DNA of 64,000 nt from Promethearchaeota archaeon (GTDB lineage: Archaea; Asgardarchaeota; Lokiarchaeia; Sigyniarchaeales; SOKP01). A program made the position numbers and the translations under genes. This document shows, one piece after another, positions 4,452-34,625 of this stretch. The notes beneath the pieces are model-generated. The model saw only the letters and a program-made list of their open reading frames with translations, was not told where the DNA came from and searched no databases. Position 1 is the first letter of the stretch. Each line of letters starts with the position of its first letter. The stretch lies in NCBI GenBank assembly GCA_019057865.1, contig JAHLWP010000015.1, forward strand, positions 22,225-86,224. The letters are read 5' to 3'.

Positions 4452-5702
4452 TTATGGAAAAATACCTCTTAATTCAACAGCTTTTGCTACTCGAGAAAGA
4501 GCAATAATATAAGCGGCTGTCCTTAAGATTAAATTCTTCTCTTTTGAGATTTTGTACACGTTTTCAAATGCATCTACAATAATTTTTTTTAATTCTTTAT
4601 TGACACGATCTAAACTCCAAAAGTAACTGTGTATATCTTGAATATATTCAAAATAAGATACGCAAACACCACCCGCATTAGCCAAAATATCTGGAATCAC
4701 AAAGATTCCTTTATTATGTAGAATTTTATCTGCTTCTGGAGTTGTTGGACCATTTGCACCTTCTAAAATAATCTTACAATTTATTTTATCAGCATTAATA
4801 TTAGTTATTTGATTCTCCAAAGCTGCTGGAACCAACACGTCGCATTTTGTAGTAAGTAATTCTTCGTTTGAAATATGCTTATAATTATTTTTGTTAAAGT
4901 CTCTTAAAAATTTTCCTTGATCTCTCCATTCTAATAATTCTTTAATGTTTAAACCTTTTTCTGAATAAATTCCACCGAAGATATCTGAAACTGCAAATAT
5001 TTTACTACCATAGTTATATAATATGTTAGCAATCCATCCTCCAACATTCCCAAATCCTTGAATTATAATGCTCATGGATTTCAAATCGTAATTTAATTTA
5101 TTACATAATGCTTCAAGCACATAAAACATGCCCATACCAGTAGCACTATCTCTACCCACAGATCCTCCTATTTCTATTGGTTTTCCAGTAACAACTCCAG
5201 GTATAGTTCGTCCTTTTTGCATGCTATATACGTCCATGATCCATGCCATGATTTGTGCATTAGTATTAACATCTGGTGCAGGGATATCGATATCTGGACC
5301 AATAAAATTTATAATTTCAGCTGTATATCTTCTCGTAAGTCTTTCTAACTCTTTTTTAGATAATTTTAAAGGATCTACGAATATACCTCCTTTTGCTCCT
5401 CCAAAAGGTAAATTCAAGAGACTACTTTTCCAAGTCATCCATATTGCTAAAGCCTTTACTTCATCAAGAGTAACATTTAGAGAATATCGTATACCTCCTT
5501 TCCCAGGTCCTCTAATTGTTGAATGATGAACTCTATATCCTTCAAAAATTTTCAACTTACCATCATCCATCATAATCGGAATAGAAACAATTAGGGAGCG
5601 TTCTATCCGCTTTAAATATGGAACAATATTTGAGTCCAAATCCATAACTTCTGCTACAATATCTATCTGTTTTTTTGCCATTTCATAAGGATTTATAGCT
5701 AT
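4452..5702 (-). CDS. gdhA: Glu/Leu/Phe/Val dehydrogenase (glutamate dehydrogenase); probable ATA start at 5702 (first ATG 5681)
   Basis: KGGIRY, MTWK, GGAKGG, DIPAPD, GFGNVG, EGANGP, NAGGV; the conserved NPYE motif lies upstream of the first ATG. Confidence 0.92.
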   Translation of the reverse strand: MAINPYEMAKKQIDIVAEVMDLDSNIVPYLKRIERSLIVSIPIMMDDGKLKIFEGYRVHHSTIRGPGKGGIRYSLNVTLDEVKALAIWMTWKSSLLNLPFGGAKGGIFVDPLKLSKKELERLTRRYTAEIINFIGPDIDIPAPDVNTNAQIMAWIMDVYSMQKGRTIPGVVTGKPIEIGGSVGRDSATGMGMFYVLEALCNKLNYDLKSMSIIIQGFGNVGGWIANILYNYGSKIFAVSDIFGGIYSEKGLNIKELLEWRDQGKFLRDFNKNNYKHISNEELLTTKCDVLVPAALENQITNINADKINCKIILEGANGPTTPEADKILHNKGIFVIPDILANAGGVCVSYFEYIQDIHSYFWSLDRVNKELKKIIVDAFENVYKISKEKNLILRTAAYIIALSRVAKAVELRGIFP

Positions 5703-5749
5703 TTTATTTCACCTTAAGATTTTTTCATAATAAATTAAAATTTAAGCAA

Positions 5750-7000
5750 TTAGGGAAATAATCCTCTTAATTCATGTGCTTTAGCTAATCTTTTTGCGCC
5801 AATAGCGAATGCTGCTATCCTAAGTGAAGTATTCATTTTTTTTGATAAATTATATACATCCTCAAAAGTTTTAATAATAATATTTTTCATTTCTCTATTA
5901 ACACGATCTAATCCCCAGAAATAACTGTGTATATCTTGAATATATTCAAAATATGAAACACATACTCCCCCGCTATTTGCAAGAATATCTGGAACGATAA
6001 TTACGCCCTTCTCATTCAAGATGGCGTCCGCTTGGGAAGTTGTTGGACTATTTGCGCCTTCCAATATGATTTTACAATCTATATTATCAGCATTTTTACT
6101 GTAAATTTGATTCTCAACCGCAGCAGGGATCAAGACATCACATTTTAAACTAAGTAATTCATCATTGGTTATAGTACTAATATTTTTTCCATTATAATCT
6201 TTAAGTGAATTCCCTTGTTGCTTCCATTTAATTATTTCGTTAATATCTAATCCGTCTGGTGAGTATATCCCTCCTTGTTTTTCAGAAACTGCAATGACAT
6301 TACATGAAATTTCACATAACTGTTTAGCAACAACCGATCCCACTTTTCCAAATCCTTGAATCACAATTTTCATTTTTTTTAAATCAAAATTTAGTTTCTG
6401 GCAAATGTGTTTAAGTAGATAACCCATTCCAGTTCCAGGGGCTTCAAGTCTTCCAACAGAACCCCCTATTTCAATTGGTTTACCAGTTACTACGCTTGGG
6501 ATAGTTCGACCCTTTTGCATACTATATGTATCCATGATCCAAGCCATTGTGGTTGAATCAGTATACATATCTGGTGCTGGAATATCTATATCTGGGCCAA
6601 TCATACTTATGATTTCAGCAGTATATCTTCTAGTCAATCGTTCTAATTCTTTTTTCGATAATTCTTTAGTATCTACGCAAACTCCCCCTTTAGATCCTCC
6701 TAAAGGTAAATTTAAAAGACTTGTCTTAAATGTCATTAAAAACGCTAAAGCTTTAATTTCGTCAAGAGTAACATCTGGAGAATATCTTAAACCTCCTTTT
6801 GCTGGACCTCGTAAAGTTGAATGATGAACTCTGTAACCTTCAAAAATTTTAAGAAAACCATCATCCATAACTATAGGGATGGAAACTATTAGTGAACGTT
6901 CAACCTTTTTTAGATATTCTAAAGTATTTGGATTTAAATTTATTAGTTCCGCAGCAATATCAAGTTTCTTTTTAGCACTTTCAAACGGATTTATTATCAA
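5750..7000 (-). CDS. gdhA: Glutamate dehydrogenase paralogue
   Basis: KGGLRY, MTFK, GGSKGG, DIPAPD, GFGKVG; start TTG 7000 (or 7018). Confidence 0.9.
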   Translation of the reverse strand: MIINPFESAKKKLDIAAELINLNPNTLEYLKKVERSLIVSIPIVMDDGFLKIFEGYRVHHSTLRGPAKGGLRYSPDVTLDEIKALAFLMTFKTSLLNLPLGGSKGGVCVDTKELSKKELERLTRRYTAEIISMIGPDIDIPAPDMYTDSTTMAWIMDTYSMQKGRTIPSVVTGKPIEIGGSVGRLEAPGTGMGYLLKHICQKLNFDLKKMKIVIQGFGKVGSVVAKQLCEISCNVIAVSEKQGGIYSPDGLDINEIIKWKQQGNSLKDYNGKNISTITNDELLSLKCDVLIPAAVENQIYSKNADNIDCKIILEGANSPTTSQADAILNEKGVIIVPDILANSGGVCVSYFEYIQDIHSYFWGLDRVNREMKNIIIKTFEDVYNLSKKMNTSLRIAAFAIGAKRLAKAHELRGLFP

Positions 7001-7156
7001 TATTTTCACAATATACAATTATTTTTATGATAATTAACTTAAATTGTGATCAATATTTAAAATTAAATTTTTTTTAAAAAAATTAGGATTTATTTGTAGA
7101 GAATATGTTTTTGTTTAATAAATTCTTAAAATTTATAAAAAATTTTCATCTAAAAA

Positions 7157-8422
7157 TTATAACCAACCACGTAATTGCATAGCATCTACAACCCTCCCAA
7201 CTGCTATTATATAAGCACCCATTCGATTGTGAGTATTATATTCTTTTGCTTTATCAACTGTAGAACGATATGCCTTAGTCATCACACGATCCAAAGCTGT
7301 AAATACTTCCTTTTCATCCCAGAAATATTGATAATATCCTTGGACCATTTCGAAATATGAAACAGTAACTCCTCCCGCATTACATAAAAAGTCAGGAATC
7401 ACGAAAATTTCATTCTTAGATAAAATTTGATCTCCTGCAGGTGTAGTTGGTCCATTTGCAAGTTCTGCAACAATCTTACAATTTAATTTTTCTGCATTCT
7501 TTCGTGTTATAACATTTTCAAGTGCAGCAGGAATTAAAATATCACATTCTAATTCTAATAATTCTTCATTGGTTATCATTTGAGCATCTTTTAGACCTAC
7601 CAATGTTGATGTTTTTTCCTTTTGAACCAAAGCCTTGTTAGGATCGATACCATCCTTATTATATATTCCACCCTTGGAATCAGATATTGCAATAATTTTA
7701 CAATTAAAATCTTGCGTTAAGATTTTAGAAGCCCAAGATCCGGCATTTCCAAATCCTTGTATAACTACCTTTGCACCATTTAGATTTAATTCGATATCTT
7801 TTGCAGCTTCTCTAATACAAAACGCGCCACCTTTAGCTGTCGAGATTAGACGTCCAGCACTTCCACCTAAAGGCAAAGGTTTTCCAGTAATTACAGCAGG
7901 TGCATGTTTACGCATAATTGTTTCGTATTCATCCATCATCCACGCCATAATCTGAGGGTTAGTATAAACATCAGGTGCAGGTACATCAATTGAAGGTCCA
8001 ATTATATCAGCTAATTTTCTAATATAATTTCTTGCAAGTATTTCAAGTTCTCTATTACTCATCTCTTTAGGAGTACAAATAATTCCTCCTTTAGCACCTC
8101 CTAATGGAATATCCACACAGGCACATTTCCAAGTCATCCAAGCAGATAGAGCTTTAACAAGAGCAGCACTTTCATCGGGATGCCATCTAATTCCCCCTTT
8201 CATTGGCCCTCTCGCTGAGTTATATTGACTCCTAAAACCCTTAAATGTTTGCAAAGATCCATTGTCCATTCTCATAGTTATTTTTATTTCGACAAATCTT
8301 TCTGGCTGATTCAAAGCCTTATAAATTTCTCTATCACAACTCATTAACTTACAGGCTGTGTAAAGCTGAATTTGAGAAATCTGAAAAGGATCTAAATTTT
8401 CACTATCTTTTAACTTTTCCAT
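7157..8422 (-). CDS. gdhA: Glutamate dehydrogenase (archaeal type)
   Basis: GPMKGGIRWHP, MTWKC, GGAKGG, DVPAPDV, GFGNAG, ELANGP, C-terminal LRGWL. Confidence 0.93.
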   Translation of the reverse strand: MEKLKDSENLDPFQISQIQLYTACKLMSCDREIYKALNQPERFVEIKITMRMDNGSLQTFKGFRSQYNSARGPMKGGIRWHPDESAALVKALSAWMTWKCACVDIPLGGAKGGIICTPKEMSNRELEILARNYIRKLADIIGPSIDVPAPDVYTNPQIMAWMMDEYETIMRKHAPAVITGKPLPLGGSAGRLISTAKGGAFCIREAAKDIELNLNGAKVVIQGFGNAGSWASKILTQDFNCKIIAISDSKGGIYNKDGIDPNKALVQKEKTSTLVGLKDAQMITNEELLELECDILIPAALENVITRKNAEKLNCKIVAELANGPTTPAGDQILSKNEIFVIPDFLCNAGGVTVSYFEMVQGYYQYFWDEKEVFTALDRVMTKAYRSTVDKAKEYNTHNRMGAYIIAVGRVVDAMQLRGWL

Positions 8423-19005: not shown

Positions 19006-20364
19006 ATGATAGAAAAAAATCATCCTAAAAGAAAAGAGTTATGTGAAAAAGTAATCGAAAAAGTTAAGGAAAATGATATTAAATTCATCTATCTTCAATT
19101 TACAGACATGCATGGCATTATTAAGTCGTTTGAAATTAATTCAAAGCGAATAGAGGATTTTTTTGAAATAGGTGAGAGTTTTGATGGAAGTTCTATAACT
19201 GGTTATGGAGCGATTGAGGAATCAGATAAAGTTGCTCTTCCAGATCCATCAACATTTTACATTATACCTTGGAGAAATGATAATAGAAAAGTTGCTCGAG
19301 TATTTTGTGATATCTACAACCCTAATGGCTCAAGATACGATGGGGATCCGCGATATATACTTCAAAAAGCTGCGAAGAAAGCAGAAGACCATGGATATAC
19401 TTATTATTGTGCTCCAGAAATGGAATTCTTTATTTTAGAGAAAAGTACTAAAGCAGAGGTATTTAATCCATCAGATATGAGAGGATATTTCGATTATGAC
19501 CCATATGATATTAATGAGAAAGTGCGCTATACTATTGCTGAGTATTGTGATATAATGGGAATCGAAATAGAAGCTTTACACCATGAGGTAGCGCTTGGAC
19601 AACATGAAGTTGATTTTCGTTATGATGAAGCAGTTAATACAGCTGATAATACAAATACAATTAAAATGATAATTAAGACTGTAGCTGCCAAAAATAATAT
19701 GACTGCTACATTTATGCCCAAACCTTTCGCGGGTATTAATGGTTCAGGGATGCACGTACATCAATCATTATGGGAAGGGCAAAATAATGTTTTTTATGAC
19801 GAATCTGATAAAGATAATATTTCAATTATGATGAGGAAGTGGATAGCTGGTCAATTAAAACATGCAAGAGCAATGTGTGCTGTTCTAAGTAGTTGGCCTA
19901 ACTCTTATAAAAGGCTTGTGCCTGGCTATGAAGCACCTGTTTATATAGCTTGGGGATTCAGGAATAGATCTCCCTTAATTAGAGTACCAGATTTTCATGG
20001 TAAACCAAATGCTGCTCGATGTGAGATTCGATGCCCCGATCCTGCTGGAAATCCATATCTACAATTCGCTGTACTCTTGTCAGCAGGGTTAGATGGAATT
20101 TTATCTGAGGATATTGAGATTCCAGAATCTCGAGATGAGAATGTATATAAGCTTACAACAAAAGAAATGGAAAAAGCTGGAATTGTTGCATTACCTGGAA
20201 GCCTATCTGAAGCATTGAAGGAATTTAGAAATTCAGAATTCATGAAGGAAGTCTTTGGAGAGCAACCCTTCAAGAACTTTTACTATGCAAAATTAGAAGA
20301 AAACGATGCATATCGAGTTGTTGTAAGTGAATGGGAGAGAACTCGATATATAACACGCTTATAG
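19006..20364 (+). CDS. glnA: Glutamine synthetase type I
   Basis: FDGSSI, HHEVALGQHE, ATFMPKP, NGSGMHVHQS, SYKRLVPGYEAP, NRS..IRVP, EIRCPDP..NPYL. Confidence 0.96.
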   Translation: MIEKNHPKRKELCEKVIEKVKENDIKFIYLQFTDMHGIIKSFEINSKRIEDFFEIGESFDGSSITGYGAIEESDKVALPDPSTFYIIPWRNDNRKVARVFCDIYNPNGSRYDGDPRYILQKAAKKAEDHGYTYYCAPEMEFFILEKSTKAEVFNPSDMRGYFDYDPYDINEKVRYTIAEYCDIMGIEIEALHHEVALGQHEVDFRYDEAVNTADNTNTIKMIIKTVAAKNNMTATFMPKPFAGINGSGMHVHQSLWEGQNNVFYDESDKDNISIMMRKWIAGQLKHARAMCAVLSSWPNSYKRLVPGYEAPVYIAWGFRNRSPLIRVPDFHGKPNAARCEIRCPDPAGNPYLQFAVLLSAGLDGILSEDIEIPESRDENVYKLTTKEMEKAGIVALPGSLSEALKEFRNSEFMKEVFGEQPFKNFYYAKLEENDAYRVVVSEWERTRYITRL

Positions 20365-26575: not shown

Positions 26576-26660
26576 TAATTTAATAATTTTAAAAAATATA
26601 TATAAATTTCGATATACTCTATATAATGTTTAAGAATAAGATAGAAATGATGTGATAAGA

Positions 26661-27344
26661 ATGGGTTCTTTAATTGAATATTTAAAACGAGAAACAGCTT
26701 TAAATGCCTTAGAAAAAACTATCAAACATGCTCAAAAAGTACAAGAGTGTGTAAAAACATTAGATATTGGATTACAAATGCTTTTAAAAGAAAAAGATTA
26801 TGATAAAACGCATGATATTTTCCATAAAGTTGATCTTTTAGAAGCAGAAGCTGATAATTTAAGACGAGAACTTCAGATGGATGTTTCAAGAGGAGAGCTA
26901 GATCCCAGTGTTAGACAAAATTTGTCTCATTTAATTAAGAGAATAGATGATGTTGCTAATTGTTGTACTGGTGTCGCCCGAAGAATTGATACAGTACCTA
27001 TAAAATTTTGGGAGCAAAGTAGTGATGAGACTATAAATTTAGTTAGTGAAATTATAAAAACAACTGTAGATTGTGCTCAATTTTTAGACAAAATTGTTAT
27101 AAATTTAGTAGAAGATAGGAAGAATGTAAAAGAAATTGCAAAACAAATTAACTATTATGAGCATGAAGTTGATCTATTGAATATAAAGTTAAGAAGGAGT
27201 CTTCAAAAAACAGATTATCACGTTAATTTTTTTACAATTTTCACAATAGGAAATATATTTGATATCCTTGAAGCTATTTCAGATTCAATTGAAGAAGTCG
27301 CAGATTATATAATGGTTCTGTTAACTAGTTCTGAACGTCTTTAA
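26661..27344 (+). CDS. DUF47 / PhoU-like phosphate transport regulator
   Basis: LEAEADNLRR, IDDVAN, YEHEVD, LEAISDSIEEVAD; ATG 26661. Confidence 0.85.
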   Translation: MGSLIEYLKRETALNALEKTIKHAQKVQECVKTLDIGLQMLLKEKDYDKTHDIFHKVDLLEAEADNLRRELQMDVSRGELDPSVRQNLSHLIKRIDDVANCCTGVARRIDTVPIKFWEQSSDETINLVSEIIKTTVDCAQFLDKIVINLVEDRKNVKEIAKQINYYEHEVDLLNIKLRRSLQKTDYHVNFFTIFTIGNIFDILEAISDSIEEVADYIMVLLTSSERL

Positions 27345-27585: not shown

Positions 27586-28608
27586 ATGAAATATGTGTTA
27601 TTTATGACACTTCATATAGAAACAAGAAAAGTGCAAAAAACAGGTGGATCAAGTTATATTATTTCATTACCAAAAGTTTGGATAGAAAAACATGGTATTG
27701 AAAAAAAAGATACTTTAGGTATCCTTAGTCAACCCGATGGGAATTTATTAATTACTCCTAATATAAACTCGGAAGAATATATAAAGAGCAAGAATTTTGA
27801 TGTAGATGGCATAACTGATCCCCCATATCTATTTCGACTTTTAATTGGAGCATATATTATGGGATATACGATCATTACGATTACATCTAGTAAAAGGTTC
27901 GAGCCAATCATAAGAGATTGTATAAGAAATTTTACTAAAATAGCTATTGGACCAGAAATAATAGAAGAAACAAATCAAAGAATATTAATAAAGGATTTGC
28001 TCAATCCCAAAGAGATGCCATTCGAAAGAACGATAAAAAGAATGTATATTTTAGCTCAAACTATGCATGAAGATGCTATAAGGGCTTTAGAGACTGGTGA
28101 TAAAGAATTAGCAAAAGAAGTTATTGAAAGAGATAATGAAATTGATAGATTACATTGGTTAGTAGGTCGTCAATCGCATATCGTACTTCGAGATATAATA
28201 TTATGTCAAAAAATGGGTATTACATTAGAAGATGCCAGTCATTATCAGTTTATGAGTAAATTTTTAGAGCGTATTGGAGATCACGCAGTTAATATAGCAA
28301 AAAATTTATTATTAATTGATTATAAAAAAGTTGACAAGAAATTATTAGAAAATATTTCAAATGTTAGTAAATTTTCCTTAGAATTGCTCGATGTCAGTTT
28401 GGATGCTTGGCAACAAAAAAATATTAAAATTGCAAATGAAAATATAGAGAAAATTAAGAATTTAACAGATGAATGTGAAAAAATCATAACTACAACAGAA
28501 AATAATGTAGAAATATCAGTTCCACTTGGATATATAATTGAAAGTATTAGAAGAACCGGAGAATATTCTGCTGATATATCAGAAATTATTATAAATAATC
28601 TAATCTGA
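27586..28608 (+). CDS. phoU: Archaeal phosphate uptake regulator (AbrB-like DNA-binding domain + PhoU domains)
   Basis: ETRKVQKTGGSSYIISLPK.W, YIMGY, DNEIDRL, LERIGDH, ESIRRTGEY. Confidence 0.9.
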   Translation: MKYVLFMTLHIETRKVQKTGGSSYIISLPKVWIEKHGIEKKDTLGILSQPDGNLLITPNINSEEYIKSKNFDVDGITDPPYLFRLLIGAYIMGYTIITITSSKRFEPIIRDCIRNFTKIAIGPEIIEETNQRILIKDLLNPKEMPFERTIKRMYILAQTMHEDAIRALETGDKELAKEVIERDNEIDRLHWLVGRQSHIVLRDIILCQKMGITLEDASHYQFMSKFLERIGDHAVNIAKNLLLIDYKKVDKKLLENISNVSKFSLELLDVSLDAWQQKNIKIANENIEKIKNLTDECEKIITTTENNVEISVPLGYIIESIRRTGEYSADISEIIINNLI

Positions 28609-29036: not shown

Positions 29037-32000
29037 CTACCAATAAATTTCTTTTAATGAATCATGATATTCATTAAGAGATTTAATTTCTATTTTTTTC
29101 TTACGAACATTTTCAATTGCTTCTACAATTGCTTTAGCTAACTGTAAATTAATAATAACCGGGATATTATAATCTACTGCCATCCTTCTAATTTGATACT
29201 CATCTTCTATTACTTGTCGGAACTTTTCTTCTATGGTTGTTGGTAGGGGGATATTGATCACCATATCGATTCTCCCATCTACCATGCACTCCTTTATATT
29301 TGGTTCCATTCCACGATCGCTTACTTTATATAGTTTTACAGCAGGAATTCCCTTTTCTTTAAGCGATTTTGCCGTGTGTTCTGTAGCAAAAATGGTGAAT
29401 CCTAAGGTTATGAGCTTTTTAGCGATTGGTATAATTTGTGTCTTTAATTCGTCTCCACCAACCGAGATTAAAACATTACCACCATCCACTGGAATGTACT
29501 GTTCTGCGGCCTCTAACGCTTTCATCAGAGCATCGGGGAGGTCTTCACCTATACATGCAACCTCTCCCGTAGAATTCATTTCTACAGAGAGAATTGGATC
29601 TGCGTTGTCTAAACGCATGAAAGAAAACATTGGGGATTTTACTGCGACAAAATCTCCATAAGGTAGATTTAATAACCTTTCGGGGATTTTTTCGCCCATT
29701 ATAACTTCAGCAGCTAATTTCATCAAATTAATTCCTCTCACTTTAGAGACATAAGGCATGCTTCTACTCGAACGTAGATTCATTTCGATTACAAATACTC
29801 CCTCATTTTTAACCAAGTATTGAATGTTAAAAGGTCCCATGACTTTTAGCGCTAAAGCAATTCTTCTAGTATAATCTTCTATAGTTTCTTTTACTTTATC
29901 AGAGATCGTGATAGGAGGGATTGACATTGTTGCATCACCTGAATGGACGCCCGCATTCTCAATATGTTCTACTATCGCTCCAATAAGAACTCTATCTCCA
30001 TCACATATTCCATCACACTCTACTTCTCGAGAATCTGTAAAAAATTTCGTAATTACTACGGGATATTCTCTTGAAACTGCTGCCGCTAAATCTAATGTGT
30101 CTATCAACGTTTTTTCATCATAAGAAACCCTCATTGCTGCACCACTTAATACATAAGAAGGTCTTACAAGAACTGGATATCCAACCTTTCTAGCAAATGT
30201 CAGAGCTTCATCTGGAGTTGTTAACATAGCCCACTCAGGTTGCTTTATACCTAATTGATCTAATAAACTACTGAACTTTGCTCTATCTTCTGCCATATCT
30301 ACTCGGGAGCCATGAGTCCCCAAGATATTAATACCAGCTTTACGATAGGATTCAGAATACTTAGCAAATTTAGCAGCAAGGTTTTGAGCAATTTGGCCTC
30401 CAGCGTTTAAAACGATGCCTTGAGCTTTTTCAAGTTCAGCAATATCTAGAACTCTTTCACCAGAAAGTTCTTCGAAATAAAGACGGTCAACTAAGTCATA
30501 ATCAGTGCTAACTGTTTCTGGATTATAATTTATCATAATTGCTTTATCTACTCCCAATTTCTGGAGGCCCCATAAGCAATTAACGCTTCCCCAGTCGAAT
30601 TCACAACTACTACCGATTCTATATGTACCACAACCTAAAACTATTACCTTTTTTAGATTATCTTTTGTTTCTTGTTCATAATCGATGTCGTGTTTATTAC
30701 CCCAATAAGTAAGATATAGGTACTGTCTTGTAGGAACAACTTGACCTGCTAGAGTATCAATTTGTTTTACATATGGAACTATGTTGTATCTCTTTCTAAG
30801 TCTCCTTATCGTTGGACTGTCAGTCCCTAAAATGTGAGCAATCTGTCCGTCAGAAAAACCATATTTCTTTGCTCTCAATATCCAATATTGCTTCTTATCA
30901 TCAGAAGATTCTAGTAAATTTAATTTTTTAAGCTGTTCTTCTATGCTAACAATATTTTTTAACTTATAAAGAAACCACTTATCAACCTTCGATCTTTCAT
31001 AAATTTCATCAATACTTATTTCCCTTTTAATAGCTTCTCCAATTCTTATGAATCTTAGATCTGTGGGATTTCTTAGCTCGTATTTCAATTCATTAATATC
31101 ATCAATTGGTTTAATATCATTACCTACAAAACCTCGCAGTCCGATGTCAAGCATACGGATTGCTTTTTGGCAAACTTCTTCAAAATTACGCCCTATACTC
31201 ATGCATTCCCCAACGCCTTTCATTTGTGGACCGATTCGACGGTCTACATTCTTAAATTTTGTCAGATCCCACCGGGGATATTTCATAACCATATAATCTG
31301 TTGCAGGCTCAAAATTTGCAGTAGTTTTAAGAGTGATTTGATTCAATAACTCAGGTATGTTATAACCAATTGCGATTTTCGCCGCTATATATGCCAATGG
31401 ATAACCAGTAGCTTTTGATGCAAGTGCGGAAGACCTTGATAATCGGGCATTAATCTCAATTGCTCTATGCTCCTTTGAAAAGGGATCAAGAGCCCATTGA
31501 ATATTGCACTCTCCACATACTCCTACTCCCTTTGTCGCTCTAATCGATGCTGACCTTAGCATTTGTAGTTCTTCATCTGGAAGGGTTTGAGCTGGAGCAA
31601 CTACAATACTATCTCCTGTGTGAATCCCACAGGGATCTATATTTTCCATACTGCAGTTAATAAAACAATTATCTTCGGCATCTCGAAGAATTTCAAATTC
31701 GATTTCCTTCCATCCCCAGACACTTTCCTCAATTAAGATTTGATTAATTCTTGATTGAGCAAGCCCTCTTTTAGCTAATCTTTCAAATTTGTCCCAATTA
31801 TAAATAAATGCAGAGCCTTGACCTCCCAATACATATCCAACCCTCAACATTATAGGAAATCCAATTTCTTTTGCAGCTTTTACAGCATCTTTATAACTAT
31901 TTACTGCAACACTTCTACAAACAGGGCAATCTGCATCATTCATTGCTTTGACAAACAAATTTCTGTCTTCTGTTGCTTCTATAGCTTCTACAGGAGTTCC

Positions 32001-32348
32001 ACATACTTTCACATCATATTTCTCCAAAATTCCAGCTTCATTTAGTTCTACGCCTACATTAAGACCTGTTTGCCCTCCAAAGGCTAAGCAAATTCCATCG
32101 GGTCTTTCTTTTTTAATTATTTCTTCGACGTATTTAACATTAATCGGGAGTAAATAAACGCGATGGCTCATATGAGGGTCTGTTTGTATTGTAGCAATAT
32201 TTGGGTTGACGAGGATTGTTTTTATGTCTTCTTCATTCAATGCCTTTAAGACTTGAGAACCGCTATAATCGAATTCTCCTGCTTGTCCGATCCTCACAGC
32301 TCCAGAACCTAATATTATAACTTTCTTTAATGATTCATCTAATGGCAC
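29037..32348 (-). CDS. carB: Carbamoyl-phosphate synthase large subunit
   Basis: IGQAGEFDYSG, NPNIATIQTD, GIHTGDS, SRSSALASKATGYP, NPETVSTDYD, RPSYVLSG, HSGDA, C-terminal MGS domain. Confidence 0.97.
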   Translation of the reverse strand: MPLDESLKKVIILGSGAVRIGQAGEFDYSGSQVLKALNEEDIKTILVNPNIATIQTDPHMSHRVYLLPINVKYVEEIIKKERPDGICLAFGGQTGLNVGVELNEAGILEKYDVKVCGTPVEAIEATEDRNLFVKAMNDADCPVCRSVAVNSYKDAVKAAKEIGFPIMLRVGYVLGGQGSAFIYNWDKFERLAKRGLAQSRINQILIEESVWGWKEIEFEILRDAEDNCFINCSMENIDPCGIHTGDSIVVAPAQTLPDEELQMLRSASIRATKGVGVCGECNIQWALDPFSKEHRAIEINARLSRSSALASKATGYPLAYIAAKIAIGYNIPELLNQITLKTTANFEPATDYMVMKYPRWDLTKFKNVDRRIGPQMKGVGECMSIGRNFEEVCQKAIRMLDIGLRGFVGNDIKPIDDINELKYELRNPTDLRFIRIGEAIKREISIDEIYERSKVDKWFLYKLKNIVSIEEQLKKLNLLESSDDKKQYWILRAKKYGFSDGQIAHILGTDSPTIRRLRKRYNIVPYVKQIDTLAGQVVPTRQYLYLTYWGNKHDIDYEQETKDNLKKVIVLGCGTYRIGSSCEFDWGSVNCLWGLQKLGVDKAIMINYNPETVSTDYDLVDRLYFEELSGERVLDIAELEKAQGIVLNAGGQIAQNLAAKFAKYSESYRKAGINILGTHGSRVDMAEDRAKFSSLLDQLGIKQPEWAMLTTPDEALTFARKVGYPVLVRPSYVLSGAAMRVSYDEKTLIDTLDLAAAVSREYPVVITKFFTDSREVECDGICDGDRVLIGAIVEHIENAGVHSGDATMSIPPITISDKVKETIEDYTRRIALALKVMGPFNIQYLVKNEGVFVIEMNLRSSRSMPYVSKVRGINLMKLAAEVIMGEKIPERLLNLPYGDFVAVKSPMFSFMRLDNADPILSVEMNSTGEVACIGEDLPDALMKALEAAEQYIPVDGGNVLISVGGDELKTQIIPIAKKLITLGFTIFATEHTAKSLKEKGIPAVKLYKVSDRGMEPNIKECMVDGRIDMVINIPLPTTIEEKFRQVIEDEYQIRRMAVDYNIPVIINLQLAKAIVEAIENVRKKKIEIKSLNEYHDSLKEIYW

Positions 32349-32353
32349 GCTTT

Positions 32354-33487
32354 TTACACATCCATAAGTTCAATAAATTTATTAAATATTTGTTCTTTCA
32401 TATCTAATGCACCTGGAGATGCTTCAGGGTTAAATGCTACCGAAAATATCGGTTTGCTCTCGTGGATGAGTCCTTCATTTGTATTATCATCTTTATCATG
32501 GAAGAATTGCTTAAAACCATCTTTTTCAACATCCTTTAAGCAAAAAACGTGATTTTGAAAAGTAATATAACAATTTTCTGTCCCACTCTCAACTGTTGTT
32601 CTACCGCCTCGATGTTCAGCAGTTAATTTATAACAAGTAGCTCCGGAAGCAAGCCCCATAATAAAATTTCCCATTCCAATTCCCATTGTAGGAACTGAAT
32701 TCTTTATTAAATTCTTTACAACTTCAATAGGTTCGTTATAGATATTAGGATTTCCAGGACCGTTTGTTATTAATACACCATTAGGTTTGAGTTCCATTAT
32801 TTTATCATAAGAATAATTATAAGGAACTACAACTACCTCAATGTTTTTGGATAGTAAAGTTCTTAAAATATTATTTTTAACACCTAAATCTAAAACTACA
32901 ACAGAACCTTTTGGATTATTAAGCGTGATCGTTTTAACTTCTTTAATAGATACAGTATCTATAAGATTTGTATTAATTGGATCTTCAATATTTTGAACCT
33001 CTGCTTTTAACGCATCAATATTTGGTTTCTGACCTTCCTTTAAAACTTGAATTAATCCTAATTTACTACCACTTACGACAAATTCTTGAGTAATCCTTCT
33101 AGTATCGATCCATTGGATACCAGGAATATTTTCTTCAATTAACCATTCTTCTAGAGTCCTAACACTTTCATAATGACTTGGATCAACACAGTATTCATTG
33201 ACAATCAAACCCTTTATTTTGATAGAATCTGATTCAAACTGTTTAAGTATTCCAAACTCGTCTTCTACCTTATCTGGAACTCCATAATTGCCTATAGAAG
33301 GATATGTAAAGAGCACAATCTGATCTTTATAGGTTGGATCTGTAAGAATCTCTACATATCCTGATCCTGGAATAGTCGAAAATGTTATTTCACCGGAAAC
33401 TTTTTCATTAGCACCAAAACCTAACCCTTCAAAATAGGTTCCATCTTGGAACATTAAAATAGCGGGTCTTTCTTTTTTATAAAGCAT
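32354..33487 (-). CDS. carA: Carbamoyl-phosphate synthase small subunit with degenerate glutaminase site
   Basis: LTDPTY..QIV, YPSIGNYG, DTR, DLGVK.NI, NGPGNP, PEASPG; GIGMG replaces GICLG and FNPE replaces FHPE. Confidence 0.92.
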   Translation of the reverse strand: MLYKKERPAILMFQDGTYFEGLGFGANEKVSGEITFSTIPGSGYVEILTDPTYKDQIVLFTYPSIGNYGVPDKVEDEFGILKQFESDSIKIKGLIVNEYCVDPSHYESVRTLEEWLIEENIPGIQWIDTRRITQEFVVSGSKLGLIQVLKEGQKPNIDALKAEVQNIEDPINTNLIDTVSIKEVKTITLNNPKGSVVVLDLGVKNNILRTLLSKNIEVVVVPYNYSYDKIMELKPNGVLITNGPGNPNIYNEPIEVVKNLIKNSVPTMGIGMGNFIMGLASGATCYKLTAEHRGGRTTVESGTENCYITFQNHVFCLKDVEKDGFKQFFHDKDDNTNEGLIHESKPIFSVAFNPEASPGALDMKEQIFNKFIELMDV

Positions 33488-33587: not shown

Positions 33588-34625
33588 TTATTGTTTGCTA
33601 ATTGAAAAATAATACTCTTTATAAGTGATTTTAATAGCTTGAAAAATTGATTCTAAATCTATATCTTCAAAATTAGACCACCACGAATAAATTTTGGTGT
33701 CAGATTTTTCTAAATCTTTAGATTCTTGTATAGATATTACATTTTGATCAATTAAAAAAGAGGGATTCAATATATCCTCAGCACCTTCTTCTAAATCTAC
33801 TAAGTTTTGAAGCATACATTCAAGTAAATCATCATAAAATAGAATGGGGATATATTTTTTTTCTCTAGGTCTCAATTCATTTAATAGAATATTCTGTTCG
33901 TCTTTATTTGTGGGAAAGCCCCTCTCATGAAGGTTAAAAACTTCTATATCTATAATTTCAGGATGATATTGAGTCTGTTTTACTTTTTCCCTCTTCTGAC
34001 GGATCATTACTTCTTTTACTTGGAAAAGTAAAACATTTCTTTGCCTTCCTCTTATCTCAACAAGAATTGAATTTTCATCAATTCTTTTATTACAAATGTC
34101 TGTAATTATTTGGCAATATTCGGTAGCAGCTTTCACAAGATCCTCTTCATCTAACTTTGCTTTTAACATTGTATTCAAATAAGCTCTTAAAAAAGCTGAA
34201 AAATCTTCTTCTAAACGGTATAAATTTCCATAAAGATACCTAGTGGAATTCCACCACTTAATTGCCCGTTCGATTGAAAGAGGAGTAAAGAAATTTTCTC
34301 GAGCTCTAACCTCAGTGAAATATAATAATTTTTCTATTCCAAGCTGAATAAATGGATTTGGGTTGATTGCTGCTGCCAGATCTTCCCCGATCGTAATAGA
34401 TATCGGTTCCCTTGGTCGAATTAGAATTGAATTTTCAGCATTATAAACACGATCAACTCTCATTGGTAAAGGCATTATTGGATTGGATTTAATAGATTTT
34501 ATTATCTCGACATATTGAGGTTGTTTTAAACCTGAAGTATCTGCTTGGAACACATCAACAAAAAAGAAAAACGGTGCAGCGTCATATTTGTAAGTTTTAA
34601 ATTTATGTATACTTATAAGGTTCAC
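33588..34625 (-). CDS. Hypothetical protein
   Basis: 345-aa ORF; start GTG 34625, or ATA 34616 behind GGTGA. Confidence 0.75.
   Translation of the reverse strand: MNLISIHKFKTYKYDAAPFFFFVDVFQADTSGLKQPQYVEIIKSIKSNPIMPLPMRVDRVYNAENSILIRPREPISITIGEDLAAAINPNPFIQLGIEKLLYFTEVRARENFFTPLSIERAIKWWNSTRYLYGNLYRLEEDFSAFLRAYLNTMLKAKLDEEDLVKAATEYCQIITDICNKRIDENSILVEIRGRQRNVLLFQVKEVMIRQKREKVKQTQYHPEIIDIEVFNLHERGFPTNKDEQNILLNELRPREKKYIPILFYDDLLECMLQNLVDLEEGAEDILNPSFLIDQNVISIQESKDLEKSDTKIYSWWSNFEDIDLESIFQAIKITYKEYYFSISKQ

What the first reader, a model, noticed from the sequence alone, without database searches (positions are those of the whole stretch)
32354..33487. CarA lacks both catalytic Cys and His: an ammonia-only carbamoyl-phosphate synthase
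Seen: the nucleophile motif reads GIGMGNF (Gly codon at 32677-32675) instead of GICLGHQ, and AFNPEASPG (Asn at 32431-32429) replaces QFHPEASPG, yet the gene is full length and 5 nt from carB. GuaA and PyrG in the same window keep intact triads. Established: vertebrate CPS I has an inactivated glutaminase domain and uses free ammonia. Inference: this is an archaeal parallel in which CarA is structural, fitting an amino-acid fermenter with three GDHs releasing ammonia.
Basis: partly seen in the sequence, partly recalled or inferred. Interest (0 to 1): 0.72.

Follow-up and report, generated by a model that had tools for sequence, protein, structure and literature searches.

The report
Glutaminase-dead CarA in sole carbamoyl-phosphate synthase
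This Loki-type Asgard archaeon has one carbamoyl-phosphate synthase, and its small subunit has lost the residues that split glutamine; the pair is a conserved old duplicate that most likely runs on free ammonia, as vertebrate CPS I does.

Summary
CarA (32354-33487, minus strand, 377 aa) has Gly271 where E. coli has Cys269, and Asn353 where E. coli has His353. Glu355 is kept. The gene is full length and ends 5 nt before an intact carB.

It is not a decayed copy of the usual gene. It belongs to a distinct second pair, carA2-carB2, which lies directly behind a normal carA1-carB1 in at least eight related genomes. All 105 CarA2 sequences examined carry Gly and Asn and form one clade, and CarB2 forms a matching clade.

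- **Selection:** dN/dS is 0.09-0.13 in both CarA2 domains and 0.04 in CarB2.
- **CarB2:** it keeps every catalytic and gate residue I checked.
- **This genome:** at 99.7% completeness it holds only the dead pair. Three congeners are the same, and 38 others hold only the live pair.
- **Consumers of the product:** pyrB and an ornithine carbamoyltransferase are present. Carbamate kinase is also present, so CPS is not the only possible source of carbamoyl phosphate.

The best reading is a CPS that uses free ammonia, convergent with vertebrate CPS I rather than related to it. This is inferred, not assayed. The scan had already noted the same paralogue in other Asgard genomes. New here are its sole-CPS status, the selection and co-evolution data, and the family-wide tally.

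The parts
32354..33487 (-). carA2: small subunit of carbamoyl-phosphate synthase with a dead glutaminase site (377 aa, P0001)
   Evidence: TIGR01368 346.8 bits; AF2 model pLDDT 93.6, TM 0.90 to E. coli CarA 1a9x_B
32675..32677 (-). Gly271 codon (GGA) at the position of the nucleophile Cys269 of E. coli CarA
   Evidence: Gly in 105 of 105 clade members, Cys in 62 of 62 sequences of the live sister group
32429..32431 (-). Asn353 codon (AAC) at the position of the triad His353
   Evidence: Asn in 105 of 105 clade members, His in 62 of 62 live sequences
29037..32348 (-). carB2: large (synthetase) subunit, 1103 aa, GTG start 5 nt after the carA stop
   Evidence: TIGR01369 1374.6 bits against a cut-off of 1027. 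All checked residues of both ATP sites and the gate Cys232/Ala251/Ala314 are conserved. dN/dS 0.04. It is the only carB in the assembly.
33588..34625 (-). Gene of unknown function (345 aa, P0272) directly upstream; a conserved neighbour of carA2 in the four genomes that hold only the dead pair
   Evidence: 53-57% identical homologue at the same position in G001, G020 and G067, and none in the fetched tandem stretches. No Pfam or NCBIfam hit. That it belongs to the system is not shown.

Best explanation
carA2-carB2 encodes a working carbamoyl-phosphate synthase whose small subunit is a pseudo-glutaminase. CarB2 carries out the normal chemistry: bicarbonate plus ATP gives carboxyphosphate, ammonia converts it to carbamate, and a second ATP gives carbamoyl phosphate. 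CarA2 cannot hydrolyse glutamine because the nucleophile Cys and the general-base His are gone and the glutamine-binding residues have been replaced. The nitrogen must therefore come from free ammonia. CarA2 is kept as the structural partner of CarB2. The start of the old ammonia tunnel is remodelled, and ammonia enters either through the emptied pocket or by a side path like the one proposed for CPS1. The pair arose by duplication of the whole carAB operon near the base of one Lokiarchaeial family. Most carriers have both pairs in tandem, and this lineage kept only the ammonia-type pair. Using ammonia directly would save the ATP that glutamine synthetase spends, which suits an energy-limited amino-acid fermenter that releases ammonia. 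Shown here: residue loss, paralogy, purifying selection and an intact CarB2. Inferred: ammonia as substrate, the entry route, and the energetic rationale.
For: - **Triad and glutamine pocket.** Cys to Gly and His to Asn are fixed in 105 of 105 clade members. Other sites changed as well (E. coli numbering): Ser47 to Thr/Ala, Gln273 to Met/Asn/Val/Ile, Gln351 to Ala/Gly/Leu, and GPGD to GPGN.
- **Paralogy.** The order carA1(live)-carB1-carA2(dead)-carB2 is seen in eight genomes, L062-L069.
- **Phylogeny.** The CarA2 clade has 100% support in FastTree and IQ-TREE, and CarB2 forms an independent clade at 100%.
- **Selection.** dN/dS is 0.09-0.13 in both CarA2 domains and 0.04 in carB2. Across the same eight genomes CarB2 is as conserved as CarB1 (0.826 against 0.815 mean pairwise identity). 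CarA2 is less conserved than CarA1 but still constrained (0.608 against 0.777).
- **CarB2 residues.** All checked catalytic, tunnel and gate residues are kept. Of the 34 fixed CarB1/CarB2 differences, 21 lie in residues 1-403, the domain that binds CarA and holds the ammonia tunnel (p = 0.0036).
- **Fold.** The model is confident (pLDDT 93.6) and matches E. coli CarA and the CPS1 N-terminal moiety at TM 0.89-0.90.
- **Sole CPS.** One carA and one carB were found in the 99.7%-complete assembly, with pyrB and OTC present as consumers.
- **Literature.** CPS1 cannot use glutamine because its catalytic Cys is Ser. An engineered block of the E. coli tunnel abolishes glutamine use but not ammonia use (PMC4655335 and its reference list).
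- **Own knowledge, not checked here.** E. coli C269G/S and H353N mutants lose glutamine-dependent activity but keep ammonia-dependent activity (Rubino et al. 1986; Miran et al. 1991).
Against: - No enzyme assay exists.
- E. coli CPS has a poor Km for ammonia, so real use of ammonia needs adaptation that I cannot show.
- The genome has two glutamine synthetases, so glutamine is available.
- It also has carbamate kinase and OTC, so carbamoyl phosphate could come from citrulline or arginine breakdown, and CPS activity is not strictly required.
- Twelve of 54 species in the genus lack carAB altogether yet keep pyrB.
- No Amt ammonium transporter was found.
- I could not inspect model coordinates, so the state of the tunnel is unknown.
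Confidence: 0.75

Rival explanations
1. The enzyme still depends on glutamine. Ammonia would be delivered by another amidotransferase docking on CarB2, or CarA2 would hydrolyse glutamine with a non-canonical nucleophile.
For: Glu355, the oxyanion-region Gly243/Gly245, Asn312/His313 and the Pro358-Gly359 tunnel loop are kept. Glutamine synthetase is present. In most carriers a live CarA1 is encoded next door.
Against: This genome has no CarA1. The residues that bind glutamine (Ser47, Gln273, Gln351) are replaced, and Gln273 is replaced by variable hydrophobic residues, which points to a relaxed pocket. No new conserved Cys or Ser appears near the site; Cys306 and Cys316 are shared with the live paralogue. 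Only GuaA, PyrG and other weak GATase hits exist elsewhere in the genome.
Confidence: 0.07
2. CarA2B2 has changed role. It would no longer serve mainly as an anabolic CPS, and might work as a regulator or run the partial back-reaction (ATP from carbamoyl phosphate plus ADP) in arginine or citrulline fermentation.
For: The genome has a catabolic OTC, carbamate kinase and ornithine aminotransferase cluster. Congeners without any carAB still keep pyrB, so this group has other sources of carbamoyl phosphate. Own knowledge: ATP synthesis from carbamoyl phosphate is a known partial reaction of CPS.
Against: Both ATP-grasp sites, the carbamate tunnel glutamates and the ammonia gate are all conserved at dN/dS 0.04. 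That is not expected if only one half-reaction mattered. Carbamate kinase already does the catabolic job. There are no fixed changes in the allosteric domain.
Confidence: 0.1
3. It is a decaying pseudogene, a sequencing error, or a contig from a contaminant.
For: The bin has 5.15% estimated contamination. CarA2 evolves about 1.8 times faster than CarA1.
Against: The frame is open. Identical substitutions occur in 12 near-identical variants from other assemblies and in 105 clade members. dN/dS is about 0.1. Flanking genes are syntenic in three congeners. The fold prediction is confident.
Confidence: 0.02

Closest known systems
Vertebrate mitochondrial carbamoyl-phosphate synthetase I (human CPS1, PDB 5DOT/5DOU/6UEL)
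   Same: A CPS with a retained but catalytically dead glutaminase domain that uses free ammonia. It exists beside a glutamine-dependent paralogue (CPS II/CAD), as CarA2B2 exists beside CarA1B1 in most carriers. It is the best PDB sequence hit (E 2e-74) and the fold matches at TM 0.89.
   Different: CPS1 is one fused 1500-residue chain; here there are two genes. CPS1 has Cys to Ser and keeps His; here Cys is Gly and His is Asn. CPS1 needs N-acetylglutamate, which is unknown here, and there is no fixed change in the allosteric domain. There is no special kinship: the live Loki CarA scores higher to CPS1 (292 against 254 bits), and the dead clade nests inside one Lokiarchaeial family.
E. coli CarAB (type II glutamine-dependent CPS) and its small-subunit mutants (PDB 1C30 C269S, 1M6V G359F)
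   Same: The same heterodimeric gene pair, domain order and fold (TM 0.90). The natural Gly271 and Asn353 sit at the positions mutated in the laboratory. From my own knowledge, C269G and H353N abolish glutamine use but not ammonia use.
   Different: The natural protein carries 35 clade-fixed differences from its live paralogue, not one. These include a one-residue deletion in the loop that holds Gly293 and a Phe at the Ala309 position. Its partner CarB2 has 34 fixed differences of its own.
Prokaryotes with two CPS enzymes (for example the arginine-specific and pyrimidine-specific CarAB and PyrAA/AB of Bacillus subtilis; own knowledge)
   Same: Two complete carAB-type pairs in one genome after duplication.
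   Different: In those bacteria both small subunits keep the triad and both enzymes use glutamine. Here one pair is glutaminase-dead, and in this genome it is the only pair left.
Carbamate-kinase-like 'CPS' of Pyrococcus, and the arginine synthetase/OTC route of Thermococcus (PMC13260591)
   Same: Archaeal ways of making carbamoyl phosphate without hydrolysing glutamine. This genome also encodes carbamate kinase and OTC.
   Different: Those are unrelated enzymes that use one ATP or none. CarA2B2 is a true CPS with two ATP-grasp sites.

Membership tests
CarA, CPS small subunit (TIGR01368; PF00988 + PF00117) | Two-domain architecture: N-terminal CPSase_sm domain plus class I GATase domain, at full length | tested here: met
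   PF00988 residues 11-146 (131.8 bits), PF00117 residues 197-373 (119 bits), TIGR01368 346.8 bits against a cut-off of 307.35; TM 0.90 to 1a9x_B
CarA, CPS small subunit (TIGR01368; PF00988 + PF00117) | Cys-His-Glu catalytic triad (E. coli Cys269, His353, Glu355), needed for the name 'glutamine-hydrolyzing' | tested here: not met
   Gly271, Asn353, Glu355. It is a homologue of the family but not a member of the functional class.
CarA, CPS small subunit (TIGR01368; PF00988 + PF00117) | Encoded next to, and paired with, a CarB large subunit | tested here: met
   carB starts 5 nt downstream. CarA2 and CarB2 co-occur in all 13 loci examined, and their trees match. Physical binding was not tested.
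CarB, CPS large subunit (TIGR01369) | Two ATP-grasp halves with catalytic residues, carbamate tunnel, ammonia gate, and C-terminal MGS-like allosteric domain | tested here: met
   TIGR01369 1374.6 bits against a cut-off of 1027; PF02786 twice, PF02787, PF02142. In E. coli numbering, R129, R169, E215, Q285, E299, N301, R303, R715, Q829, E841, N843, R845 and C232/A251/A314 are all conserved.
CPS I (ammonia-dependent, EC 6.3.4.16) | Glutaminase domain present but inactive | tested here: met
   CPS1 has Ser294 in place of the Cys (PMC4655335).
CPS I (ammonia-dependent, EC 6.3.4.16) | Uses free ammonia and not glutamine | not testable with these tools
   Needs an enzyme assay; here it is inferred from the loss of the triad.
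CPS I (ammonia-dependent, EC 6.3.4.16) | Single fused polypeptide and obligate activation by N-acetylglutamate | tested here: not met
   There are two separate genes. NAG dependence cannot be tested. There is no fixed CarB1/CarB2 difference in the allosteric domain.
CPS I (ammonia-dependent, EC 6.3.4.16) | Descent from the metazoan CPS I/III lineage | tested here: not met
   The dead clade nests within one Lokiarchaeial family, and the live paralogue is closer to CPS1 than the dead one. It works like CPS I but is not a member.

The most novel reading that the evidence does not exclude
A Lokiarchaeial family evolved, by carAB operon duplication, a dedicated ammonia-dependent CPS with a pseudo-glutaminase subunit and a co-adapted synthetase subunit. 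This would be a prokaryotic, two-subunit counterpart of vertebrate CPS I. In this lineage it has fully replaced the glutamine-dependent enzyme, so all CPS-made carbamoyl phosphate for pyrimidines and arginine would come from free ammonia. The fixed new residues around the old pocket and tunnel (Glu291, Arg296, Phe310, Asp331, and Val at CarB position 18) would then mark a rebuilt route for ammonia entry.
Probability: 0.6. Interest if true: 0.72.

Novelty: new variant of a known kind. Interest (0 to 1): 0.62.

Why it matters
As far as I know, textbooks treat prokaryotic CarAB as glutamine-dependent and confine ammonia-dependent CPS I to ureotelic animals. Here an archaeal family carries a second, strongly conserved CPS whose glutaminase is dead, and one lineage relies on it alone.

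If it uses ammonia, several things follow:
- It would be a natural, independent repeat of the step from CPS II to CPS I.
- It would give a clean paired system (CarA1B1 against CarA2B2 from one genome) for asking how a tunnel enzyme is re-plumbed for external ammonia.
- It would change nitrogen and ATP budgets in metabolic models of Asgard archaea.

Public records name these proteins 'glutamine-hydrolyzing', which is probably wrong. My searches of the held literature found no description of this.

Tried and rejected
- **Special kinship with CPS1.** The better PDB score to CPS1 than to E. coli looked like a link. I rejected it because the live paralogue scores higher to both.
- **Trait of the whole genus.** Rejected. 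Only 4 of the 42 carA-bearing species of the genus have the dead type.
- **Disproportionate relaxation of the GATase domain.** Rejected. The ratio of C-domain to N-domain divergence is 1.12 in the dead clade and 1.31 in the live one, and dN/dS is equal in both domains.
- **Broken dead copy in G104.** Rejected. The gap is 100 N of scaffolding.
- **Same paralogue in Helarchaeota and other dead forms.** P0123, P0128, P0131 and P0135 fall outside the clade on long branches, so they look like separate losses. Their placement is unsure.
- **Tunnel residue list.** Fan et al. 2009 (PMC2748306) is not held. The list of tunnel-lining residues, apart from the gate (PMC8674909), therefore rests on my memory.
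- **Literature searches.** No search found an Asgard or prokaryotic dead CarA.
- **Not done.** I did not run complex prediction, because a textbook pair would pass by likeness alone.

Full report
**1. Observation**

The ORF at 32354-33487 on the minus strand is open and encodes 377 residues. GIGMGNF occupies residues 269-275, with Gly271 encoded by GGA at 32677-32675. AFNPEASPG occupies residues 351-359, with Asn353 encoded by AAC at 32431-32429.

Aligned with E. coli K-12 CarA (locus L061), these positions are Cys269 and His353, and Glu355 is kept. Both Pfam domains are full length, and the protein passes the NCBIfam CarA cut-off. The stop codon is followed by 5 nt and then the GTG start of a 1103-residue CarB (TIGR01369, 1374.6 bits).

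GuaA and PyrG in the window keep their Cys and HPE motifs. Three tandem glutamate dehydrogenase genes lie at 4452-8422.

**2. Not an artefact and not private to this assembly**

The 90%-identity cluster of this protein has 23 members from NCBI, JGI, ENA and Logan assemblies. The 12 other full-length members read, at 98-99.7% identity, all have Gly and Asn. Among the 120 best 90%-clusters, 101 carry Gly and Asn together, down to about 54% identity. The other 19 keep GICLGNQ and QFHPE.

**3. What it is: the second pair of a duplicated operon**

A search of all 154 species genomes of the order showed many genomes with two carA genes 4.6-6 kb apart. Fetching these loci showed the order carA1-carB1-carA2-carB2 in eight genomes, L062-L069. 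A ninth, L070, is cut off by a contig end. In every case the upstream CarA has GICLGNQ and QFHPE, and the downstream one has GIG.G and FNPE.

The phylogenies agree:
- The dead CarAs form one clade: 105 rows at FastTree 100%, and 28 rows at IQ-TREE SH-aLRT 100%.
- This clade sits inside the clade of one family. The other families of the order hold a single live copy.
- The first 470 residues of CarB give the same picture independently. CarB2 is one clade at 100% inside the family clade at 97%.

The whole operon therefore duplicated near the base of this family, and the triad was lost once. I checked the motif in every carA hit of the order. The tally for the family's 135 genomes is below.

| State in the family (135 genomes) | Genomes |
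|---|---|
| Dead type present, in 8 of 13 genera | 20 |
| Dead and live types together | 16 |
| Dead type only (G000, G001, G020, G067, all in the window's genus) | 4 |
| Live type only | 87 |
| No carA at E <= 1e-40 | 28 |

- The four dead-only genomes share flanking genes: an unknown 345-residue gene upstream, and in two of them an ABC-like pair downstream.
- Within the genus of 54 species, 38 have only the live pair and 12 have none.
- The own assembly, 99.67% complete in 87 contigs, holds exactly one carA and one carB.

**4. Is the dead subunit maintained?**

Yes. Between the window and its relatives (dS 0.5-0.8 for carA), dN/dS is 0.11-0.13 for carA2. It is 0.09-0.13 for the dead GATase domain alone and 0.04 for carB2.

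Across the same eight tandem genomes, mean pairwise identities are:

| Protein | Mean pairwise identity |
|---|---|
| CarA1 | 0.777 |
| CarA2 | 0.608 |
| CarB1 | 0.815 |
| CarB2 | 0.826 |

- CarA2 evolves faster than CarA1 but remains constrained.
- CarB2 is as constrained as the canonical synthetase.
- The speed-up affects both CarA domains equally.
- AlphaFold2 gives a confident full-length model (pLDDT 93.6, pTM 0.92). It superposes on E. coli CarA (TM 0.90) and on the CPS1 N-terminal moiety (TM 0.89). Only the Ser-Pro-Gly-Ala loop at 357-360 has low confidence.

**5. What changed**

The dead clade has 35 differences from its live sister that are fixed or nearly so. They fall into three groups, given here in E. 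coli numbering:
- **Glutamine pocket:** Ser47 to Thr/Ala, Cys269 to Gly, Gln273 to variable Met/Asn/Val/Ile, Gln351 to Ala/Gly/Leu, and His353 to Asn. GPGD becomes GPGN.
- **Positions I recall as lining the small-subunit part of the ammonia tunnel:** the Ser35 position goes from Thr to Pro, and the Ala309 position goes from Ser to Phe/Tyr. The loop holding Gly293 changes from YGHRGGNK to AEHRGG-R, losing one residue.
- **Kept residues:** Gly293, Asn311, His312, Pro358, Gly359 and Glu355.

Gly271 and Asn353 are invariant rather than drifting. This suggests a new structural constraint, not mere neglect.

CarB2 keeps all residues I checked in both ATP sites, the carbamate-tunnel glutamates, and the gate Cys232/Ala251/Ala314 named in PMC8674909. 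It has 34 fixed differences from CarB1, and 21 of them lie in residues 1-403. That is the carboxyphosphate domain, which binds CarA and holds the ammonia tunnel (binomial p = 0.0036). Several sit next to tunnel or gate residues (positions 17, 18, 218, 220, 221, 233, 253). None is in the allosteric domain. This looks like co-adaptation of the two subunits around the ammonia path.

**6. Mechanism proposed**

CarB2 is a complete CPS synthetase. CarA2 cannot make ammonia from glutamine, so the enzyme must use free ammonia, with CarA2 serving as its structural partner. Support from known systems:
- Human CPS1 cannot use glutamine because the catalytic Cys is Ser. It is thought to take up external ammonia by a path that bypasses the old site (PMC4655335).
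- From my own knowledge, E. coli C269G/S and H353N enzymes keep ammonia-dependent activity.

Whether Phe310 plugs the disused tunnel, or the emptied pocket serves as an entry port, cannot be decided without coordinates.

A plausible benefit is the saving of the ATP that glutamine synthetase spends per glutamine. This would matter in an ammonia-rich, energy-poor fermentative life. The three GDH genes fit that picture, and no Amt transporter was found. This rationale is inference.

**7. Context that tempers the reading**

- The genome has two glutamine synthetases, one of them in the window at 19006-20364. Glutamine is therefore not lacking.
- It has pyrB at 369.9 bits. It also has a cluster of ornithine carbamoyltransferase (355.7 bits), carbamate kinase (386 bits) and ornithine aminotransferase. 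Carbamoyl phosphate thus has consumers, but it also has a possible second source from citrulline or arginine, as shown for Thermococcus (PMC13260591).
- Congeners without any carAB still keep pyrB.
- So this is the sole CPS, but not necessarily the sole source of carbamoyl phosphate.

**8. Relation to known systems**

It works like CPS I but is not a member of that lineage. It consists of two genes and has different substitutions. The live paralogue is more similar to CPS1 than the dead one is (292 against 254 bits). The resemblance is therefore convergent.

Other CarA sequences without the Cys appear among the 150 best 50%-cluster representatives, about 25 of them. They include one named Helarchaeota and one from a rotifer. 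Four tested ones fall outside this clade on long branches.

**9. Earlier notes of this scan**

These were consulted after I had found the tandem pairs. They report the same Loki-type second pair in other genomes, and dead CarAs in several bacterial groups. My results agree with them. They also add the following:
- the sole-CPS state of this genome;
- the family-wide tally;
- the same-genome rate comparison;
- dN/dS by domain;
- the CarB2 co-variation.

Searches of the held literature found no description of a prokaryotic or Asgard dead CarA. NCBI names clade members 'glutamine-hydrolyzing'.

**10. Verdict**

This is a new variant of a known kind. Confidence in the ammonia-dependent CPS reading is 0.75, and interest is 0.62.

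Noticed in passing
Genus-wide; e.g. G012, G053, G065: Twelve of 54 species of the genus have no carA, several at 97-99% completeness, yet keep pyrB. G012, G053 and G065 also lack carbamate kinase, so their source of carbamoyl phosphate is unexplained. An arginine/OTC route as in Thermococcus is possible.
   Followed up: partly
L086 (G000 contig C14:3000-14000): 4029-4961, 6469-7386, 7427-8689: A cluster of ornithine carbamoyltransferase, an unknown 327-aa gene, carbamate kinase and ornithine aminotransferase. It looks like a catabolic route from citrulline or arginine to ATP in the same genome.
   Followed up: partly
window 4452-5681, 5750-7018, 7157-8422 (all minus strand): Three tandem glutamate dehydrogenase genes (PF00208, 250-270 bits). 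They share the contig with GlnA (19006-20364), GuaA, PyrG and carAB, forming a neighbourhood of nitrogen metabolism.
   Followed up: partly
whole genome G000: No Amt-type ammonium transporter (PF00909) was found in the 99.7%-complete assembly, although all 14 control genomes have one.
   Followed up: no
window 33588-34625 (-), P0272: A 345-aa protein with no Pfam or NCBIfam hit. It is conserved at 53-57% identity directly upstream of carA2 in all four dead-only genomes and is absent from the fetched tandem stretches.
   Followed up: partly
P0123, P0128, P0131, P0135, P0133: Other CarA homologues that lack the Cys or the His: Asp/Phe, Gly/Asn (named Helarchaeota), Glu/His, Gly/Asp, and a 909-aa rotifer protein with Gly/Asn. 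The four archaeal ones fall outside the clade on long branches, so the triad seems to have been lost repeatedly.
   Followed up: partly
P0286 (NVM35078.1), P0128 (NVM02689.1): Public records name members of the dead clade 'glutamine-hydrolyzing carbamoyl-phosphate synthase small subunit'. Given the missing Cys and His, this is probably a misannotation.
   Followed up: no
CarA and CarB trees: The window's CarA2 and CarB2 group with those of G102 and G099, which belong to another genus, more closely than with G067 of its own genus. Either the dead pair moved between genera or the gene tree and the genus assignment disagree.
   Followed up: no
window 27586-28608 (+) and 26652-27344 (+): A PhoU-like protein (TIGR02135, 67 bits, below cut-off) and a TIGR00153-family protein lie downstream of carB on the opposite strand.
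   Followed up: no
P0001 residues 357-360: The only low-confidence segment of the AF2 model (pLDDT below 50) is the Ser-Pro-Gly-Ala loop. It corresponds to the E. coli Pro358-Gly359 loop, whose G359F mutant has a solved structure (PDB 1M6V).
   Followed up: no
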